This document shows, piece by piece, positions 3,926 through 22,018 of a DNA stretch of 64,000 nucleotides (the first letter of the stretch is position 1; every line of letters starts with the position of its first letter). Made by a program: the position numbers and the translations under genes. The DNA comes from Escherichia coli (lineage in GTDB: Bacteria > Pseudomonadota > Gammaproteobacteria > Enterobacterales > Enterobacteriaceae). The stretch lies in the NCBI RefSeq assembly GCF_030013205.1, contig NZ_CP122648.1, one strand, 5' to 3'. The notes under the pieces were generated by a model that was not told where the DNA came from, did not search any database, and saw nothing but the letters and a program-made list of their open reading frames with translations.

Positions 3926-6900
3926 ACTGACGTACCACGCCAGCGGCTACCTGAAAGCCATTCACCGCACGGATAACGGCATACAGACGCTGGCGACCTA
4001 CGAACAGGATGCGCGGGGGCGGCTGACAGAAGCGGATGCGCGGCTGGACTACCACCTGTTTTATGAGTACGACGCTGCGGACCGGATCATCCGCTGGTCC
4101 GATAACGACCAGACGTGGAGCCGTTTCACCTACGATGAACAGGGCCGGTGCGTGAATGTCACCGGGGCGGAGGGCTATTACAACGCCACGCTGGACTATG
4201 GTGACGGCTGCACCACCGTGACGGACGGCAAGGGCATTCACCGTTATTACTATGATCCTGACGGCAATATTCTGCGGGAAGCAGCGCCGGACGGCAGCAC
4301 CACCATGTATGAATGGGATGAATTCCATCACCTGCTGGCCCGTCACTCCCCTGCCGGGCGGGTGGAGAAATTTGAATACAACGCCGCACACGGTCAGTTA
4401 AGCCGTTACACGGCGGCAGACGGCGCGGAGTGGCAGTACCGCTATGATGAGCGCGGCCTGCTCAGCAACATCACCGACCCTGCCGGGCAGACGTGGACAC
4501 AGCAGTGTGATGAACGCGGCCTGCCGGTAAGTCTGGTGTCGCCACAGGGCGAAGAGACCCGGCTGGCATACACCGCTCAGGGGCTGCTGTCGGGAATATT
4601 CCGCCAGGATGAACGGCGTCTGGGCATAGAGTACGACCACCACAACCGGCCGGAAACACTCACCGACGTGATGGGCCGTGAACACCACACCGAATACAGC
4701 GGTCACGACCTGCCGGTGAAGATGCGCGGCCCCGGCGGTCAGTCAGTGCGGTTACAGTGGCAGCAGCACCATAAACTGAGCGGCATTGAACGTGCTGGAA
4801 CCGGCGCGGAAGGATTCCGCTACGACCGCCACGGCAACCTGCTGGCCTGGACGGACGGCAACGGCGTTGTCTGGACAATGGAATACGGCCCGTTTGATTT
4901 GCCGGTGGCGCGAACGGACGGTGAAGGCCACCGCTGGCAGTACCGCTACGATAAAGACACGCTGCAACTGACAGAAGTCATTAACCCGCAGGGTGAGTCA
5001 TATCTTTATGTTCTGGATAACTGCGGCCGGGTGACGGAAGAGCATGACTGGGGCGGCGTGGTCTGGCGTTACCGCTATGACGCCGATGGCCTGTGTACCG
5101 CCAGGGTCAACGGCCTGGAGGAAACCATCCTCTACAGCCGGGACGCCGCAGGCCGCCTGGCAGAAGTCATCACGCCGGAAGGCAAAACGCAGTATGCGTA
5201 TGACAAATCCGGCAGGCTTACGGGTATCTTCAGCCCGGACGGCACATCACAGCGCACCGGCTATGACGAACGCGGGCGGGTGAATGTCACCACTCAGGGC
5301 CGACGGGCCATTGAATACCACCACCCCGATGAACACACCGTCATCCGCTGTATCCTGCCACCGGAAGATGAACGCGACAGACACCCCGGTGAATCCCTGC
5401 TGAAAACCACGTACCGCTACAACGCCGCCGGAGAACTGACGGAGGTTATCCTGCCGGGGGATGAGACGCTGACGTTCAGCCGTGATGAGGCAGGACGTGA
5501 AGTGCTCCGGCACAGTAACCGGGGTTTTGCCTGTGAACAGGGCTGGAATGCAGCCGGCCAGTCTGTCAGCCAGCGCGCCGGATTTTTCCCGGAAGAAGCC
5601 ACATGGGGCGGGCTGGTTCCGTCACTGGCGCGGGAATACCGTTATGACAGCGCGGGCAATGTGTCGGCTGTCACCAGCCGGGAAGATTACGGACGGGAAA
5701 CACGGCGGGAATACCGGCTGGACCGGAACGGCCAGGTCACGGCGGTGACAGCCTCAGGCACCGGGCTGGGCTATGGCGAAGGCGATGAGTCCTATGGCTA
5801 TGACAGCTGCGGCTACCTGAAGGCGCAGTCTGCGGGCTGGCACCGGATAAGTGAAGAGACTGACCAGTATGCCGGAGGCCACCGGCTGAAACAGGCCGGA
5901 AACACGCAGTATGACTATGACGCCGCAGGCCGGATGGTCAGCCGCACCAGACACCGTGACGGCTATCGCCCGGAAACAGAGCGGTTCCGGTGGGACAGCC
6001 GTGACCAGCTGACCGGGTATTGCAGCGCACAGGGTGAGCAGTGGGAATACCGCCACGACGCCAGCGGCAGACGAACAGAGAAACGCTGCGACCGGAAGAA
6101 AATCCGCTTCACGTATCTGTGGGACGGCGACAGTATTGCGGAAATCCGGGAATACCGCGATGATAAACTGTACAGCGTACGGCACCTGGTGTTTAACGGC
6201 TTTGAGCTGATAAGCCAGCAGTTCAGCCGGGTACGGCAGGCGCATCCGTCGGTGGCCCCGCAGTGGGTGACACGGACGAATCATGCGGTGAGCGACCTGA
6301 CGGGCCGTCCGCTGATGCTCTTTAACAGTGAAGGTAAAACCGTCTGGCGACCGGGACAGACCAGCCTGTGGGGGCTGGCACTCAGCCTGCCCGCAGACAC
6401 CGGCTACCCGGACCCGCGCGGGGAACTGGACCCGGAAGCCGACCCCGGCCTGCTGTATGCGGGACAGTGGCAGGATGCAGAATCCGGGCTGTGCTATAAC
6501 CGGTTCCGGTATTACGAGCCGGAAACCGGGATGTACCTGGTGAGTGATCCGCTGGGGTTGCTGGGGGGTGAGCAGACTTACCGGTATGTGCCAAATCCGT
6601 GTGGGTGGGTTGATCCGCTGGGATTGGCTGCAAGTTCTAAAATCAGCAGTTTGATGGACTATATTGGCGATGGTCGTCGTGTTAGTGGGCATACGGGTTT
6701 CCTGGATGGGGTTCGTTTATCACGTAGTCAAATAAACAATATTGCTAAAGAAATGGAGAAGCTAGGAATTAAAGTAATAAGGAAAGCAGATAAATATTTG
6801 CCACCAAATGCTAGGGCAGCTTTTGATTATGGCCTTCGCAATATTTATCTTAGGAAAAATGCCACCTTATATGAGGTGTATCATGAAGTGATTCATGCTA

Positions 6901-17948: not shown

Positions 17949-19433
17949 ATGCGAAAAATAATTACTCATTTCAAAGTTGTTTTAACGTTACTTCTACCAG
18001 TAACCGTATCTGCCCAGCAGATACAGTGGCAATCCTGTATGGCCAGTCAATTCAACCACTGGTTTGGTGAGGAAAAACCGTCTCCTGACTTACTATGTGG
18101 TTATTTGTCTGTTCCATTAAAATATACAGACACAGGCGGAGATGCTTCTTATGAAAAAAAATCACAAGTCAAACTAGCGTTGACAAAATTGCCGGCAAAA
18201 AGCAAGCATAAAGGAAGTATCCTGATAATAAGTGGTGGTCCCGGGTTACCAGGCATAAATCCTTATATTAACTTTGACTGGCCAGTCACAAATCTTCGTG
18301 AGTCATGGGATATTATTGGATTTGATCCTCGAGGCGTCGGACAGTCCACTCCGACAATAAACTGCCGGCAATCAGATACAGAGACTCAGGAAAACATAAC
18401 CGAAAAGCAACAAGTATTAAATAAAATTAATGCCTGTATCCATAATACCGGAGCCGAAGTCATTCGCCATATCGGCTCTAACGAGGCTGTGTACGATATT
18501 GATCGTATTAGGCAAGCCTTGGGGGATAAACAACTGACAGCCGTGGCGTATTCGTATGGAACTCAAATTGCAGCCTTATATGCAGAACGTTTTCCCTACA
18601 ACGTAAGATCTATCGTTCTTGATGGAGTCGTCGATATCGATGACCTGGAGGACAACTTCACATGGCAACTCAAACAGGCACAGAGTTATCAGGAAACGTT
18701 TGATCGCTTTGCATCCTGGTGTGCGCGTACAAAAAGTTGCCCGCTTTCTTCAGACAGAGATAAGGCAATAACTCAGTTCCATGAGCTATTATCAAAATTA
18801 CATCACAAACCTTTATTAGACAGTAAGGGAGAAAATATATCTTCAGATGAACTCATATCATTAACAACAGACCTTCTGCTATGGCGTTCATCATGGCCAA
18901 CCCTTGCAACTGCCATACGCCAGTTCTCTCAGGGGATTGTCAGTAATGAAATTGAAACTGCGCTCAGTGCTCCGATAGCCTCAGAAGAGTCAAGCGATGC
19001 TTCGGGGGTAATCCTCTGTGTAGATCAGGGGGATGAGCAATTAACACCAGAAGAGCGAAAATCCCGAAAAGACGCTCTTGCGAATGCCTTCCCGGCTATT
19101 AACTTTGACAATGGACGTTCCGATTCACCTGATTTTTGTGAATTATGGCCAATACATAGCGACCTGAACAAAACTCGCCTGAAAAATATTGTTCTGCCCT
19201 CTGGTTTACTGTTTGTAGCACACAAATACGACCCAACAACGCCCTGGATTAATGCCCGTAAGATGGCAGAGAAATTTTCCAGCCCGTTACTAACAATAAA
19301 TGGTGATGGGCATACATTAGCTCTCACCGGAGTTAATTTATGTGTAGATAAAGCAGTTGTACATCACCTGATCACTCCACAAAAAATAGAAAATATATAC
19401 TGCCCAGGAAATTCTGAAGCAGAAATACAATAA
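17949..19433 (+). CDS. Secreted alpha/beta-hydrolase, S33/TAP-like peptidase family (putative)
   Basis: ATG at 17949 gives MRKIITHFKVVLTLLLPVTVSAQQ (signal peptide); nucleophile elbow VAYSYGTQ; size (~494 aa) and layout resemble proline iminopeptidase / tripeptidyl aminopeptidase-type hydrolases. Confidence 0.6.
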   Translation: MRKIITHFKVVLTLLLPVTVSAQQIQWQSCMASQFNHWFGEEKPSPDLLCGYLSVPLKYTDTGGDASYEKKSQVKLALTKLPAKSKHKGSILIISGGPGLPGINPYINFDWPVTNLRESWDIIGFDPRGVGQSTPTINCRQSDTETQENITEKQQVLNKINACIHNTGAEVIRHIGSNEAVYDIDRIRQALGDKQLTAVAYSYGTQIAALYAERFPYNVRSIVLDGVVDIDDLEDNFTWQLKQAQSYQETFDRFASWCARTKSCPLSSDRDKAITQFHELLSKLHHKPLLDSKGENISSDELISLTTDLLLWRSSWPTLATAIRQFSQGIVSNEIETALSAPIASEESSDASGVILCVDQGDEQLTPEERKSRKDALANAFPAINFDNGRSDSPDFCELWPIHSDLNKTRLKNIVLPSGLLFVAHKYDPTTPWINARKMAEKFSSPLLTINGDGHTLALTGVNLCVDKAVVHHLITPQKIENIYCPGNSEAEIQ

Positions 19434-19455
19434 TTTCAAAATATTCCGCTATTTG

Positions 19456-19495
19456 CTCCCAATGCAAAACATATATTGCATTGGGAGCATATTCA
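19456..19495 (+). terminator. Rho-independent terminator after the hydrolase gene
   Basis: Perfect 12-bp inverted repeat ctcccaatgcaa/ttgcattgggag with 9-nt loop, followed by a T-rich run. Confidence 0.7.
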
Positions 19496-19616
19496 TATTT
19501 TTGTTATTCTTGTATGAAATCGTCTCATGTACACGGTCCTTTTTTCGCCGAAAACTGATATTACTTTAATCAAAAGTTGACGTGCCAGATTCGAAGTAAA
19601 TTTATAAAATATCAAA

Positions 19617-19922
19617 TCAATATACATTTTGCACCTTCGAGATAGTAATGAATGTTACTGTAACATGAGTTACAAACAGCTTCATACCCAGAGCTACTGA
19701 TGTATCAACACGATTCAACAATACCCGATATTTATTCCATGCCTCCAGCAACGATCTTTCTTCCTCCGTTGCGATTTCCAGATCTACAGCATCCTGCAGT
19801 GGCGCAATATACTCACTGAATTCCTGGATGTAGAACTGTGTGGTGACGGTCTTCCAGCCATTCGGCTCCTGCTGTATCGAAGCATACCAGGCTATTTCAA
19901 TATCGCTATGCTGCGGCAGCAT
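19617..19922 (-). CDS. Hypothetical phage protein sharing a ~37-aa segment with the gene remnant at 20700-20867
   Basis: 101-aa ORF; the central segment [34 protein letters not shown] is encoded by one copy of the ~120-bp direct repeat. Confidence 0.4.
19699..19818. repeat. Direct repeat copy A (~120 bp, ~88% identical to copy B)
   Basis: Hand alignment to 20748-20867. Confidence 0.8.
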
Positions 19923-19978
19923 TTAACCCCTTGTAATTCATCGCCATAATTGATTTAATTCACAAATAAAACTATAAC

Positions 19979-20647
19979 ATGGTGAAATTAATGAAAAAAA
20001 ACACAGATGATGGGGCTAAAATTTACACACCACTTACCCTAAAGCTTTATGACTGGTGGGTTTTGGGAGTATCAAATCGGCTTGCATGGGGATGTACTAC
20101 AAAGGAACACCTTCTTCCACACTTTCTGGAACATTTAGGTAACAACCATCTGGATATTGGTGTTGGAACTGGGTTTTACCTTACTCACGTACCTGAGAGT
20201 AGTCTGATATCTTTAATGGATTTGAACGAAGCTAGCCTGAACGCGGCATCTACAAGGGCTGGGGAATCAAAAATTAAACATAAAATTAGCCATGATGTTT
20301 TTGAACCTTATCCCGCGGCGTTACATGGTCAATTTGATTCCATTTCCATGTTTTACCTTCTTCACTGCCTGCCTGGAAATATATCTACAAAAAGCTGTGT
20401 AATACGCAATGCGGCGCAGGCCTTAACTGACGATGGAACTCTATACGGAGCCACAATTCTTGGCGATGGAGTTGTGCACAATAGCTTCGGTCAAAAACTG
20501 ATGCGCATTTACAATCAGAAAGGCATCTTTTCAAACACAAAAGATTCCGAAGAAGGCTTAACACATATACTCTCAGAGCATTTCGAGAATGTTAAAACCA
20601 AGGTTCAAGGTACTGTAGTAATGTTTTCCGCTTCAGGGAAAAAATAG
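19979..20647 (+). CDS. Class I SAM-dependent methyltransferase (putative)
   Basis: 222-aa ORF with Rossmann motif I (LDIGVGTGFY); sits between the two direct repeats, opposite in orientation to neighbouring phage genes. Confidence 0.65.
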   Translation: MVKLMKKNTDDGAKIYTPLTLKLYDWWVLGVSNRLAWGCTTKEHLLPHFLEHLGNNHLDIGVGTGFYLTHVPESSLISLMDLNEASLNAASTRAGESKIKHKISHDVFEPYPAALHGQFDSISMFYLLHCLPGNISTKSCVIRNAAQALTDDGTLYGATILGDGVVHNSFGQKLMRIYNQKGIFSNTKDSEEGLTHILSEHFENVKTKVQGTVVMFSASGKK

Positions 20648-20654
20648 CATCCAA

Positions 20655-20687
20655 CCGCAGCACGTTCTTGCTTAAGACGTGCTGCGG
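20655..20687. terminator. Hairpin (11-bp perfect stem) between the methyltransferase gene and the gene remnant; likely bidirectional terminator
   Basis: ccgcagcacgt / acgtgctgcgg with 11-nt loop; T-run follows on the minus strand. Confidence 0.5.
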
Positions 20688-20747
20688 CATAATCCCAATG
20701 ATTACTCCCTGACAGGGTTCGTAGGCCACTCAATATCAGGTGCAGTT

Positions 20748-20867
20748 GATGTATCAACACGGTTCAGCAACACCCGATACTTTTTCCAGGCTTCCAGCAA
20801 TGAGGTTTCTTCCTCCGTTGCGATTTCCAGATCCACAGCATCCTGAAGTGGCGCAATATGCTCACTG
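20748..20867. repeat. Direct repeat copy B (~120 bp)
   Basis: Hand alignment to 19699-19818. Confidence 0.8.
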
Positions 20868-21104
20868 GCTACCCTGGCGACGCGCCTTACGCGTTAACCA
20901 GCCTTCTGCTTCCAGCCGTGCGATAGCCGTTCTGACGGTACTCATCCCCGCGCCAATCTGGCGTGCAATGGTTTCAATTGATGGCCAGCACACACCTTCG
21001 TCATTACTGAAATCAGCCAGGCGGGCCATAATTGCCACGCTGGATAACTTCATGCCTGACGCAGCGCAACCATCCCATACATAGCCGGTTAATTTAGTGC
21101 TCAT
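20862..21104 (-). pseudogene. Phage HTH protein (replication-initiator-like N-terminus), truncated / frameshifted
   Basis: 80-aa ORF with HTH (SIETIARQIGAGMSTVRTAIARLE); the homologous continuation ([20 protein letters not shown]...) is in another frame immediately downstream. Confidence 0.5.
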
Positions 21105-21113
21105 GACCGACCT

Positions 21114-21452
21114 CTATTTCCCTGAATTTACGACGAAACTGTTCGAGCGGGCTGAAGCACTCATGCTCATAGCCTTCGCGGAGGTAGATAACCCGTTGTG
21201 TTTCCGGCTCCCAACGAATGACTCTGACGGGTACTCCGTAGTGATCTTTGAACCAGCGGTTAACTTGTCGCAAAGGACTGTCTCCTTCTGCCGGTTGAAA
21301 TCACCCACAGCCCACTCTGCAAAGCTGTGGGTTACAATTTCCCTGTCACCTGGTACATTCACTGCATAGCAATATTCCACCTTCGCTTTTCCACCCGGTA
21401 CAGGAAGCGCAATCAGTTGCGAGCGACGGTAGTGTGTTGTTAAACTGTTCAT
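21114..21452 (-). CDS. Hypothetical phage protein
   Basis: 112-aa ORF; ATGA overlap with the upstream CII-like gene suggests translational coupling. Confidence 0.4.
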
Positions 21453-22018
21453 GCGTTAGTTTCTCCACAACCAGAAGCAATCGACGCCACGACGCCCGGA
21501 GCTGCACACTCGCGGGCGTCATTACTTTCTGAAATGCAAAAAATTTTGTAGACAAGTGCTGCATGCTCCTGCAGCTTCGAAATTGAGAGATACAGCTCGT
21601 CGTTAATTGCTGTCTTCTCATGCGGTTCCACTACACCGTCTTCGATTGCTGAACGAATCTGTTTTGAATAACTGCCGATCTGTTCAATGACTTCCAGCAG
21701 ACGCTGGTTAATATCGGCGTTGTCCACATCCTCGACGTCAGGAAGAGACACAAAGACGCCATTTGCAGACTGCGCCACAGCATCAGCAATGAAGTGAGTG
21801 CCACCAGCACGCTGTAAAACCATTGCCCATCCCAGCGGGAAAATCTGATCGCCATCTGCACGAAGGCGGTTGAATAAAGCGTTTTCTGTTACATCGAGCC
21901 AGTCAGCCGCTTCAGCGTAACCACCCGGCAACGCCGCGATAGTTTTTCTGACAGCTTTCACGTACCACTCAGGCTGTTTTTCTATTTTCCAGTGATGCTT
22001 ACCCACGATTAGCCTCAT
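21449..22018 (-). CDS. Phage CII-like / YdaT-family regulatory protein (putative)
   Basis: 189-aa ORF directly downstream of the cro-like gene in the rightward early operon; assignment by position and general resemblance. Confidence 0.45.

What the first reader, a model, noticed from the sequence alone, without database searches (positions are those of the whole stretch)
19617..20867. SAM-methyltransferase cassette flanked by ~120-bp direct repeats derived from a duplicated gene segment
Segments 19699-19818 and 20748-20867 are about 88% identical by hand alignment and are in direct orientation around the 222-aa methyltransferase gene (motif LDIGVGTG) and a perfect 11-bp-stem hairpin. Each repeat encodes the same ~37-aa peptide segment, one inside an intact 101-aa ORF and the other in a frameshifted remnant. 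This suggests the methyltransferase arrived by recombination into a phage gene, leaving a partial duplication.
Basis: seen in the sequence. Interest (0 to 1): 0.5.

Follow-up and report, generated by a model that had tools for sequence, protein, structure and literature searches.

The report
Known prophage methyltransferase between tail-fibre-gene remnants
The repeat is real, but it is the already annotated tfaD-ybcY-tfaX arrangement of a common E. coli lambda-like prophage: a small non-DNA methyltransferase gene spliced between the ends of two tail-fibre-assembly genes.

Summary
Segments 19698-19818 and 20747-20867 are direct repeats of 121 nt at 89% identity around a 222-aa SAM methyltransferase gene and an 11-bp-stem hairpin.

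The window is E. coli, a lambda-like prophage at the argU (DLP12) locus. K-12 annotates the same arrangement as tfaD-ybcY-tfaX.

- **Both repeats** are the conserved C-terminal-domain coding part of tail-fibre-assembly (tfa) genes on the minus strand.
- **Copy B** is the 3' end of the phage's real tfa, which is 194 aa in intact relatives. A ~33-kb deletion found only in 17 swine strains cut it and joined it to the first 79 codons of replication gene O.
- **Copy A** lies in a chimeric ORF. That ORF has about 31-35 codons of an unrelated small phage gene ("gene X"), then the Tfa C-domain, then a non-tfa tail.

An intact ybcY/gene X divergent pair exists in a Citrobacter prophage. The roughly 830-bp cassette is joined at short shared patches on both sides. 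The joint occurs in 3436 of 5426 complete E. coli genomes and in viable phages.

Copies A and B differ mostly at synonymous sites (dN/dS 0.15), so they look like two tfa alleles rather than a fresh duplication. YbcY resembles small-molecule and lipid methyltransferases, not DNA methyltransferases. This is ordinary and already annotated.

The parts
17949..19433 (+). Secreted alpha/beta hydrolase (TAP-like), prophage b-region cargo next to ompT
   Evidence: RefSeq annotation of the identical strain. phrog_20134 with E = 0, and PADLOC PDLC01094 at 1e-55. Viable phages PhiR26_1, ev243 and PhiR29_1 carry it between tfaX and ompT/int.
19454..19489 (+). Terminator-like hairpin after the hydrolase gene
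   Evidence: 14-pair stem followed by a T-rich tail. Reported as inverted repeat I1.
19617..19922 (-). Chimeric 101-aa ORF, the equivalent of K-12 tfaX: gene X 5' end, Tfa C-domain, then a non-tfa tail
   Evidence: phrog_2341 (88-aa family) at 5e-56. Residues 29-77 match tail-fibre-assembly PHROGs and residues 3-37 match phrog_3893. K-12 annotates tfaX in the same position.
19617..19697 (-). Non-tfa tail of the ORF. The joint J3 at 19697/19698 is where the hydrolase/ompT cargo module cuts off the last ~15 tfa codons
   Evidence: The trp/ompW-locus prophage copy (L006) continues with the true tfa end, stop codon and hairpin, whereas the window diverges after GATACATCA. K-12 has a third variant followed by appY.
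19698..19829 (-). Repeat copy A: coding DNA for the conserved Tfa C-terminal domain (121 nt against the truncated copy B, 132 nt against an intact tfa)
   Evidence: Rfam IS009 scores 108.4 bits, below the gathering score.
19830..19922 (-). First ~31 codons of gene X, a small phage protein of the phrog_3893 family. Joint J2 to tfa lies at about 19820-19838 in a short CAGGNA patch shared by both parents
   Evidence: Intact 80-aa gene X in Citrobacter L019:3699-3941 and in L021. A 79-aa ORF in Klebsiella phage Kp4882-3 is 51% identical. Phage Ayreon continues into gene X beyond window 19836.
19923..19978 (.). AT-rich (27% GC) divergent spacer between gene X' and ybcY; promoter region
   Evidence: Conserved with the Citrobacter ybcY/gene X spacer. 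In K-12 the ybcY/tfaX spacer is listed as an RpoD-holoenzyme SELEX site with H-NS, with the predicted ybcY promoter TTGATT-17-TATAAC (PMC3946193), which is window 19950-19978.
19979..20647 (+). ybcY: class I SAM-dependent methyltransferase, intact here (a pseudogene in K-12). The likely true start is the ATG at 19991 (M5)
   Evidence: Pfam Methyltransf_12/23/25/11. phrog_2132 at 8e-156, matching residues 5-222. Present in 3831 of 5426 E. coli genomes at 95% identity or more. K-12 b0562. M5 is invariant in 21 homologues.
20653..20659 (.). Joint J1: 7-nt overlap between ybcY-module homology and tfa-terminator homology
   Evidence: Citrobacter homology covers window 20400-20659 and lambda tfa-region homology covers 20653-20873.
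20655..20687 (.). Hairpin (11 perfect pairs plus 3): the native terminator-like element downstream of tfa, shared with lambda, which also sits just after the ybcY stop
   Evidence: Fold energies and z-scores. Homologous hairpins occur downstream of lambda tfa and of the long tfaX copy in L006.
20702..20873 (-). Repeat copy B: the last 172 nt of the prophage's real tfa (tfaD type), including its stop codon
   Evidence: 99-100% identical to the 3' end of full-length 194-aa tfa genes in O121 RM8352, PhiR26_1 and PhiR29_1. Rfam IS009 scores 133.7 bits, above the gathering score.
20867..20873 (.). Joint J4: 7-nt microhomology (GGCTACC) at a ~32.9-kb internal prophage deletion
   Evidence: The window matches PhiR29_1 tfa up to 20873 and PhiR29_1 gene O from 20867. 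The deleted span is PV340556.1 7353-40216. The joint occurs only in 17 swine ETEC/O139:H1 genomes.
20862..21104 (-). Truncated replication-initiation gene O (first 79 codons, HTH domain), running out of frame into the tfa remnant
   Evidence: phrog_11896 at 1e-50 and phrog_391, profile positions 1-79 of 225 and 298. RefSeq marks it 'missing C-terminus'. The intact 313-aa O is in PhiR29_1.

Best explanation
**What it is.** This is the cargo ('b-region') end of a defective lambda-like prophage at the E. coli argU/DLP12 locus, carrying the arrangement K-12 annotates as tfaD-ybcY-tfaX.

**How it arose.**
- An ~830-bp piece (window ~19830-20659) was spliced in. It holds ybcY, its AT-rich divergent spacer and the first ~31 codons of the neighbouring small gene X.
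- The donor module resembles one still intact in a Citrobacter prophage.
- Both splice joints are illegitimate and sit at short shared patches. J1 lies just past the terminator hairpin of the phage's functional tfa. J2 lies inside the conserved C-domain region of a second tfa allele.
- This left a whole tfa upstream of the cassette and a tfa 3' fragment fused in frame to gene X downstream of it. The two ~130-nt direct repeats are therefore a by-product of the splicing.
- The repeats resemble each other because every Tfa protein shares this C-terminal domain.

**Later events.** The recombinant spread through lambdoid phages and prophages of E. coli. Downstream cargo was then exchanged or trimmed (hydrolase+ompT here, appY in K-12). 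In the swine lineage of this window, a 33-kb deletion removed everything from replication gene O to mid-tfa.

**What ybcY does.** ybcY behaves as a moron, a self-contained cargo gene within a prophage. It is low in GC, lies on the opposite strand and appears to have its own promoter region. It encodes a small-molecule or lipid-type class I methyltransferase of unknown substrate.

**Shown versus inferred.**
- Shown: the identities, the joints, the distribution and the substitution pattern.
- Inferred: the order of events, and whether the two tfa alleles differed when the joint formed or diverged later by allele replacement.
For: - **Locus and annotation:** the locus is identified from the identical strain and from K-12.
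- **Copy B:** an intact 194-aa tfa sits directly upstream of ybcY in O121 and in viable phages PhiR26_1 and PhiR29_1.
- **Copy A:** the ORF is a chimera of phrog_3893 and a Tfa C-domain.
- **Donor module:** an intact, divergent ybcY (90% aa) / gene X pair is present in Citrobacter contigs L019 and L021.
- **Joints:** J1 and J2 were mapped by homology end-points.
- **Hairpin:** it is shared with the region downstream of lambda tfa.
- **Distribution:** the J2-bearing segment is in 3436 of 5426 genomes and 4813 places, at both the argU and trp/ompW loci, and in 14 phage records.
- **Substitution pattern:** dN/dS between A and B is 0.15, P = 4e-4 against neutrality.
- **Allele distances:** B is 95% identical to a Salmonella phage tfa, whereas A is at most 89% identical to any full-length tfa.
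- **Variable flanks:** ev243, Ayreon, EC958, K-12 and O157 show repeated crossovers and insertions at these segments.
- **Deletion:** the joint has 7-nt microhomology and occurs in 17 swine genomes only.
- **Composition:** ybcY is 40.7% GC and the spacer 26.8%, against 49.9% for the window.
- **Tfa architecture:** variable N-domain and conserved C-domain (PMC9608196 citing North et al. 2019).
Against: - No full-length tfa of the A type was found, so the second parental allele is inferred and not observed.
- In L006 the last ~75 nt of the long A copy are almost identical to that genome's B copy, while the first 120 nt are 11% diverged. Gene conversion has blurred the history, and a single-genome duplication followed by allele replacement cannot be excluded.
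- The J2 crossover point can only be placed within about 18 nt.
- The promoter scan of the region finds no more sites than shuffled sequence does.
- Expression of ybcY from this prophage was not tested.
Confidence: 0.8

Rival explanations
1. The methyltransferase cassette was inserted into a single tfa gene of one phage genome, and about 130-216 nt of that gene was duplicated as a target duplication. The two copies diverged afterwards.
For: - The two tfa segments are direct, and they flank the cassette exactly.
- In L006 the repeat is 216 nt long and includes the stop codon and hairpin, as a staggered duplication would give.
- Among full-length tfa alleles in the phage collection, the B type is nominally the closest to A at 89%.
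Against: - Divergence is strongly biased towards synonymous sites (pS 0.38, dN/dS 0.15). A dead duplicate decaying neutrally would not show this.
- ybcY and joint J2 are 95-100% identical across more than 3400 genomes, so the A/B divergence is far older than the spread of the cassette.
- B is closer to other phages' tfa genes (95%) than to A.
- The ORF around A starts with a piece of a foreign gene.
Confidence: 0.13
2. The repeats are functional elements in their own right. They could be homology arms that let the cassette be excised or exchanged by homologous recombination, or copies of the Rfam 'IS009' small-RNA gene.
For: - Both copies match Rfam RF02111 IS009, and copy B scores above the gathering threshold.
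- One draft contig (L011) has a tfa whose repeat is B-like at the 5' end and A-like at the 3' end, with no ybcY. A crossover inside the repeat would produce this.
- K-12 tfaX is a mosaic of A-type and a third allele.
Against: - None of the 5426 complete genomes carries the simple pop-out product, that is, tfaB body + repeat + A-downstream DNA contiguous.
- The longest identical run between the copies is 28 nt.
- The repeat boundaries coincide with a protein domain, and substitutions follow codon constraint.
- The IS009 model is in effect the conserved 3' part of tfa coding sequence, and no expression data were examined here.
- No recombinase gene is associated with the cassette.
Confidence: 0.04
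3. The chimeric ORF (gene X leader plus Tfa C-domain; 89 aa in its most complete form, 101 aa here) is a functional protein. It might be a minimal Tfa-like chaperone, or a decoy that interferes with tail-fibre assembly of superinfecting phages.
For: - The ORF has an ATG preceded by AAGGGG.
- The fusion is in frame.
- It forms its own PHROG family (phrog_2341, 88 aa) and its clusters are seen on about 1000 contigs.
- K-12 data list an RNA-polymerase binding site facing tfaX (PMC3946193).
Against: - The C-terminus is not maintained. This window has a junk tail after VDTS, another variant ends in ...VARKRTA (82 aa), and K-12 has a TGG>TGA stop giving 61 aa.
- UPEC-type loci have deleted it altogether (PMC6854850).
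- It lacks the fibre-binding N-domain that defines Tfa specificity (PMC9608196).
Confidence: 0.03

Closest known systems
tfaD-ybcY-tfaX of cryptic prophage DLP12, E. coli K-12 MG1655 (b0561-b0563)
   Same: - Same chromosomal locus: argU side, with ompT, envY, ybcH and nfrA beyond.
- Same gene order and orientation.
- About 98% nucleotide identity over window 19693-20873.
   Different: - In K-12 ybcY is a pseudogene (667 nt), tfaX carries a premature stop (61 aa) and a different 3' allele, and appY follows instead of the alpha/beta hydrolase.
- In K-12 tfaD is fused to different upstream remnants (nohD/aaaD).
- Here ybcY is intact and tfaD is cut down to 172 nt and fused to gene O.
Viable lambda-like phages PhiR29_1, PhiR26_1, PhiR30_1, 2G7b, ev243, Turner and Kati
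   Same: - 98-99.6% identical across tfa 3' end, hairpin, ybcY, the 101-aa ORF, the hydrolase and ompT.
- PhiR29_1 also shares the cI/YmfL/YmfM/O early region.
   Different: - These phages are complete genomes of 45-48 kb with an intact tfa, or in ev243 a different fibre module joined inside copy B.
- The window lacks about 32.9 kb of the equivalent genome.
Moron / mosaic-joint model of lambdoid phage evolution (Hendrix and colleagues; recalled from memory, not checked here)
   Same: - An extra gene of lower GC sits between phage genes on the opposite strand.
- It has its own promoter region and a terminator.
- It is joined at novel joints inside dispensable genes.
   Different: - The terminator is borrowed from tfa rather than brought in by the cassette.
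- One joint created an in-frame chimeric ORF.
Rfam RF02111 IS009 (candidate prophage-associated sRNA)
   Same: Both repeats align to the full 199-nt model on the tfa coding strand, and copy B exceeds the gathering score.
   Different: - The matched sequence is protein-coding tfa DNA under codon constraint.
- Copy A is below the gathering score.
- No evidence was gathered here that it is an RNA gene.
Bacterial phosphatidylethanolamine N-methyltransferase PmtA and other small-molecule class I methyltransferases (JHAMT, NodS, UbiG)
   Same: - The best fold matches of the YbcY model are PDB 8ys9 (E = 4e-12, TM 0.61-0.67), then 7ec0 and 3ofj.
- There are weak sequence matches to UbiG, JHAMT, PmtA and RquA.
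   Different: - Identity is only 13-21%.
- Many unrelated small-molecule methyltransferases score almost equally, so no substrate can be assigned.
- YbcY scores far below every NCBIfam cut-off.

Membership tests
Tail fibre assembly protein (Tfa; Pfam PF02413 Caudo_TAP) | Conserved C-terminal helical domain (…APLQDAVDL…AT.EE…L..W..YRV.L.RVD…) | tested here: met
   Both copies encode it. PHROG tail-fibre-assembly families phrog_105, 188 and 136 match residues 29-77 of the 101-aa ORF. PF02413 is precomputed on near-identical proteins. Copy B is identical to the end of a 194-aa Tfa.
Tail fibre assembly protein (Tfa; Pfam PF02413 Caudo_TAP) | Variable N-terminal fibre-binding domain, giving a full length of about 170-200 aa, encoded directly downstream of the side tail fibre gene | tested here: not met
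   In the window, copy B keeps only 57 codons and is fused to gene O. Copy A is preceded by 31-35 codons of a phrog_3893-type gene. Neither copy is a functional tfa here. In intact relatives copy B does meet this feature.
DLP12-type lambdoid prophage at argU | Integrase remnant next to tRNA-Arg, lambdoid immunity and early genes, and ompT/envY/nfrA beyond the tail-fibre end | tested here: met
   Annotation of the identical strain K_EC180 shows tRNA-Arg, partial integrase, ymfK (LexA-like repressor), ymfT, ymfL, and then ompT, envY, ybcH and nfrA. K-12 labels the same region as cryptic prophage DLP12.
Class I SAM-dependent methyltransferase | Motif I GxGxG, acidic residue after strand 2, and a Rossmann-like seven-strand fold | tested here: met
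   LDIGVGTG (residues 58-65) and D81 are invariant in 21 homologues. Pfam Methyltransf_12/23/25/11 match. The AlphaFold2 model has mean pLDDT 86 with alternating strands and helices. All top PDB fold matches are class I methyltransferases.
DNA methyltransferase (orphan or anti-restriction) | Match to a DNA-methyltransferase family (N6_N4_Mtase, MethyltransfD12/Dam, DNA_methylase), a catalytic (D/N/S)PP(Y/F/W) or PCQ motif, and a target-recognition domain | tested here: not met
   No such Pfam, NCBIfam or PADLOC match. No DPPY-type or PCQ motif is seen in the sequence. The top 50 fold matches are all small-molecule, lipid or natural-product methyltransferases. The related phage PhiR29_1 carries a separate DNA N6-adenine methyltransferase elsewhere in its genome.
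Moron (autonomous cargo gene in a lambdoid phage) | Own promoter and terminator, atypical composition, dispensable, located between conserved phage genes | tested here: inconclusive
   Composition is atypical (40.7% against 49.9% GC). The gene is dispensable: it is deleted in Ayreon and a pseudogene in K-12. The hairpin is adjacent but belongs to tfa. The promoter rests on K-12 in-vitro SELEX data from the literature (PMC3946193). The consensus scan here shows no excess over shuffles.
Transposon, IS or integron cassette | Transposase or integrase gene, terminal inverted repeats or attC, and short target-site duplication | tested here: not met
   No inverted repeats bracket the cassette. It contains only ybcY and a gene fragment. 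The flanking repeats are 121-132-nt coding segments at 89% identity, not target duplications.
Rfam RF02111 IS009 | Covariance-model score at or above the curated gathering score (117 bits) | tested here: inconclusive
   Copy B region 20745-20944 (-) scores 133.7 bits and meets the threshold. Copy A region 19696-19899 (-) scores 108.4 bits and does not. Whether the family is a real RNA gene was not tested.

The most novel reading that the evidence does not exclude
YbcY could be a PmtA-like lipid (phospholipid N-) methyltransferase carried as a lysogenic-conversion gene, so that about 70% of E. coli strains could modify a membrane lipid or another small molecule from a prophage moron. A secondary and even less likely reading is that the gene X-Tfa C-domain chimera acts as a decoy against tail-fibre assembly of incoming phages.
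Probability: 0.07. Interest if true: 0.5.

Novelty: already known. Interest (0 to 1): 0.13.

Why it matters
It matters little for new biology. The arrangement is annotated in K-12 (tfaD, ybcY, tfaX) and is present in roughly two thirds of complete E. coli genomes.

The dissection does tidy up annotation:
- 'tfaX' and the 101-aa 'tail fiber assembly protein' are chimeric scars, not tfa genes.
- The ybcY cassette can be traced to a ybcY/gene X module.
- Matches to Rfam IS009 are mostly conserved tfa coding sequence.

It is also a compact worked example of how lambdoid phage mosaics form, with four illegitimate joints within 1.3 kb.

The one open question is what the widespread, conserved YbcY methyltransferase methylates.

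Tried and rejected
1. **Full-length parent gene for the 101-aa ORF.** Among 652 homologues, every protein sharing the leader is a short variant (82, 89 or 101 aa), a further truncation, or a differently fused or extended ORF of at most 142 aa. None is a complete Tfa. tblastn with the leader alone against phages found only gene X-type small ORFs.
2. **A closer full-length allele for copy A.** The best full-length tfa in the phage collection is 89% identical, and it is the B type itself.
3. **Cassette loss by recombination between the repeats.** A synthetic pop-out junction found 0 of 5426 complete genomes. Only draft contig L011 shows a chimeric repeat, and its tfa body is a different one.
4. 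**Homology of YbcY to the other K-12 prophage methyltransferase, YmfD (e14).** None.
5. **Defence-system membership of YbcY.** The only hit is PADLOC mad2 at E = 0.0086, which is not credible.
6. **Distant YbcY homologues in phages.** None below 98% identity. Chromosomal homologues in Enterobacter and Salmonella have no conserved neighbours, so context gives no functional clue.
7. **Promoter and terminator consensus scan.** No excess over shuffled sequence.
8. **Other Rfam matches.** mir-450 and CssrB are far below their gathering scores and were treated as chance or as similarity of the hairpin alone.
9. **Literature.** Searches for ybcY and tfaX returned only genome-context and SELEX mentions, with no functional study.
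Full report
**1.
- The repeat finder reports one strong direct-repeat family in 19000-21800: 19698-19818 and 20747-20867, 121 nt, 89% identity, 1049 nt apart. BLAST E is 1.7e-40.
- There are 13 mismatches, and the longest identical run is 28 nt.
- Between the copies lie a 222-aa ORF (19979-20647, +) with the motif LDIGVGTG and a hairpin at 20655-20687.
- The hairpin has 11 perfect pairs plus three more. Free energy is -23.9 kcal/mol on the + strand and -28.5 kcal/mol on the - strand; z is -5.0 and -3.4.
- On the minus strand both repeats encode the same roughly 40-residue peptide, with three differences.

**2. Where we are.**
- The region is 100% identical to swine E. coli strains such as K_EC180.
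- In that genome it lies in a prophage remnant next to tRNA-Arg, bounded on one side by fimZ and on the other by ompT, envY, ybcH and nfrA.
- K-12 MG1655 has the same arrangement inside its annotated 'cryptic prophage DLP12'. The genes there are tfaD (b0561), ybcY (b0562, a pseudogene), tfaX (b0563), then appY and ompT. Identity over window 19693-20873 is about 98%.
- RefSeq annotates both repeat-bearing segments of the window's strain as partial 'tail fiber assembly protein' genes on the minus strand.
- The finding is therefore an already annotated feature of E. coli.

**3. Copy B is the end of the phage's real tfa.**
- In O121 strain RM8352 and in the viable phages PhiR26_1 and PhiR29_1, the DNA to the right of the methyltransferase is a full-length 194-aa tfa. 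It is preceded by stf, lom and J. The window's copy B encodes exactly its last residues.
- In the window this gene stops matching at 20873. From 20867 the sequence matches the start of replication gene O of PhiR29_1. The two homologies overlap by 7 nt (GGCTACC).
- The missing span corresponds to PV340556.1 positions 7353-40216, about 32.9 kb, covering replication, nin, lysis, head and tail genes.
- The 80-aa ORF at 20862-21104 is the first 79 residues of a 225-300-aa O-like or primosomal protein (phrog_11896, 1e-50).
- This deletion joint occurs in only 17 of 5426 complete genomes, all swine ETEC or O139:H1.
Against an intact tfa the A/B homology is 132 nt and runs to window 19829.

**4. Copy A sits in a chimera.**
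- The 101-aa ORF (19617-19922, -) matches tail-fibre-assembly PHROGs only over residues 29-77.
- Residues 3-37 match a different family, phrog_3893 (E = 3.7e-7). The whole ORF belongs to an 88-aa family, phrog_2341.
- Among 652 homologues, every protein sharing the leader is a short variant (82, 89 or 101 aa), a further truncation, or a differently fused or extended ORF of at most 142 aa. None is a full-length Tfa.
- The leader is the N-terminus of a small phage protein, which I call gene X. Examples:
  - a 79-aa ORF in Klebsiella phage Kp4882-3, 51% identical;
  - HK225_029, a weak match (38.9% identity over 36 residues, E = 0.2);
  - an intact 80-aa gene in Citrobacter freundii contigs that reads [40 protein letters not shown]....
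- In those Citrobacter contigs, gene X lies divergently next to a YbcY homologue (90% amino-acid identity), across the same AT-rich spacer.
- The nucleotide alignment places the gene X::tfa joint (J2) at window ~19820-19838, in a short CAGGNA patch present in both parents.
- Phage Ayreon has lost ybcY but keeps its last 36 nt. It continues from the leader into gene X rather than into tfa, which confirms where the joint lies.
- At the other end of copy A, the window diverges from the tfa reading frame at 19697/19698 (J3). Prophages at the trp/ompW locus keep the full tfa end, stop codon and a second hairpin, giving a 216-nt repeat. K-12 has a third allele there plus a TGG>TGA stop.

**5. The cassette and its left joint.**
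- Homology to the Citrobacter ybcY module covers window 20400-20659.
- Homology to the lambda tfa region covers 20653-20873, which includes the hairpin.
- The hairpin is therefore tfa's own terminator-like element. Joint J1 is a 7-nt overlap just beyond the ybcY stop codon.
- The acquired piece spans about 19830-20659, roughly 830 bp. It holds ybcY, the 56-nt spacer (27% GC) and the first ~31 codons of gene X. ybcY is 40.7% GC against 49.9% for the window.

**6. Distribution.**
- ybcY is in 3831 of 5426 complete E. coli genomes, at 4876 places, with 95% identity or more.
- The J2-bearing segment (19790-20010) is in 3436 genomes at 80% coverage or more. It occurs at two or more chromosomal loci, argU and trp/ompW.
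- Fourteen phage records carry the arrangement at 96-99.6% identity.
- Variants show that this spot is a hot-spot for rearrangement:
  - ev243 has a different fibre module joined inside copy B;
  - O157 has a yciGFE/catalase-like block inserted between the tfa stop codon and ybcY;
  - UPEC-type loci have deleted from gene X' through the hydrolase, so ybcY abuts ompT. That context is noted in PMC6854850.

**7. Duplication or two alleles?**
- Over 42 aligned codons, A and B differ by 11.5 synonymous and 5.5 non-synonymous changes. This gives pS 0.38, pN 0.057 and a ratio of 0.15, with binomial P = 4e-4 against neutral expectation.
- That is the signature of two tfa genes diverging under protein constraint, not of a dead duplicate.
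- B is 95% identical to a Salmonella phage tfa and 88-89% identical to lambda's. A is at most 89% identical to any full-length tfa.
- The divergence is also much older than the cassette's spread, because ybcY and J2 are nearly identical everywhere.
- The Tfa family is known to combine a variable N-terminal fibre-binding domain with a conserved C-terminal domain (PMC9608196, citing North et al. 2019). This explains why any two tfa genes share this roughly 130-nt stretch.
- Two caveats apply. No intact A-type tfa was found. In L006 the distal part of the long A copy is almost identical to that genome's B copy, so gene conversion has occurred.
- I therefore prefer unequal, illegitimate recombination between two lambdoid genomes, or a duplication followed by allele replacement. 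I give the simple 'insertion with target duplication' about 13%.

**8. Do the repeats do anything?**
- A synthetic junction representing loss of the cassette by A x B recombination matched no complete genome (0 of 5426).
- One draft contig (L011) has a tfa with a different body whose repeat is B-like at the 5' end and A-like at the 3' end, followed directly by the hydrolase. Crossovers in this segment do therefore happen, but rarely.
- Both repeats match Rfam IS009, with B above the gathering score and A below. The matched sequence is tfa coding DNA, and I found no evidence of a separate RNA gene.

**9. The methyltransferase.**
- Pfam gives only generic class I domains. NCBIfam matches to CpaM, RquA and PmtA are far below their cut-offs.
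- Sequence matches in the PDB are JHAMT and UbiG at E of about 1e-3. PADLOC gives nothing credible.
- Homologues at 55-68% identity are widespread in Enterobacterales chromosomes, without conserved neighbours.
- An AlphaFold2 model (pLDDT 86) is closest to a bacterial phosphatidylethanolamine N-methyltransferase (8ys9, E = 4e-12). JHAMT, NodS and many natural-product methyltransferases follow. No DNA methyltransferase appears in the top 50.
- The sequence has no DPPY-type or PCQ motif.
- PhiR29_1 carries a separate DNA adenine methyltransferase, inside the segment deleted from the window.
- The DNA-methyltransferase and anti-restriction idea is therefore unsupported, and the substrate remains unknown.
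- The likely true start is the ATG at 19991. M5 is invariant in homologues, the PHROG profile starts there, and the K-12 SELEX promoter TTGATT-17-TATAAC ends at 19978.

**10. Verdict.** The repeat is real and non-random. It is part of an ordinary, already annotated prophage mosaic. Interest is low. The only open question is what YbcY methylates.

Noticed in passing
window 20745-20944 (-) and 19696-19899 (-): Rfam RF02111 'IS009', a candidate prophage sRNA, matches both repeats at 133.7 and 108.4 bits (gathering score 117). The model appears to be the conserved 3' coding part of tfa genes, so genome-wide IS009 calls may mostly be tfa genes.
   Followed up: partly
window 17949-19433 (+): The secreted alpha/beta hydrolase (TAP-like) matches a PADLOC candidate-defence model (PDLC01094 'C3a206', 1e-55) and phrog_20134. 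Together with ompT it is b-region cargo of viable lambda-like phages (PhiR26_1, ev243, PhiR29_1), so ompT itself travels on inducible phages.
   Followed up: partly
window 19950-19995: The annotated ybcY start (19979) directly abuts the -10 hexamer of the K-12 SELEX-predicted promoter (TTGATT-17-TATAAC). The conserved start is M5 at 19991, which implies a very short or absent leader if that promoter is used.
   Followed up: partly
window 20867-20873: A 7-nt microhomology (GGCTACC) marks a ~32.9-kb internal prophage deletion that fuses replication gene O to tfa. The joint is private to 17 swine ETEC/O139:H1 genomes and could serve as a lineage marker.
   Followed up: yes
L019:3307-3941 (Citrobacter) and L012:2504-3071 (Klebsiella phage Kp4882-3): The small gene X (phrog_3893, 79-80 aa, unknown function) sits immediately upstream of a UmuD-like (S24 peptidase) gene in both, which suggests a conserved two-gene unit in prophage cargo regions.
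   Followed up: no
L004:6167-8380 (E. coli O157:H7): A yciG/yciF/yciE/Mn-catalase-like stress-gene block is inserted between the tfa stop codon and ybcY in the O157 prophage. This is another cargo insertion at the same spot.
   Followed up: no
window 20656-20718 (-): The tfa/ybcY hairpin gives a weak, sub-threshold match to Rfam CssrB, a Shigella chromosomal sRNA (32.6 bits against a gathering score of 76).
   Followed up: no
window 21094-21273 (-) versus 21114-21452 (-): RefSeq calls a 59-aa DUF4222 protein here, while the phage record PhiR29_1 annotates the overlapping 112-aa YmfM ORF in another frame. The two annotations conflict.
   Followed up: no
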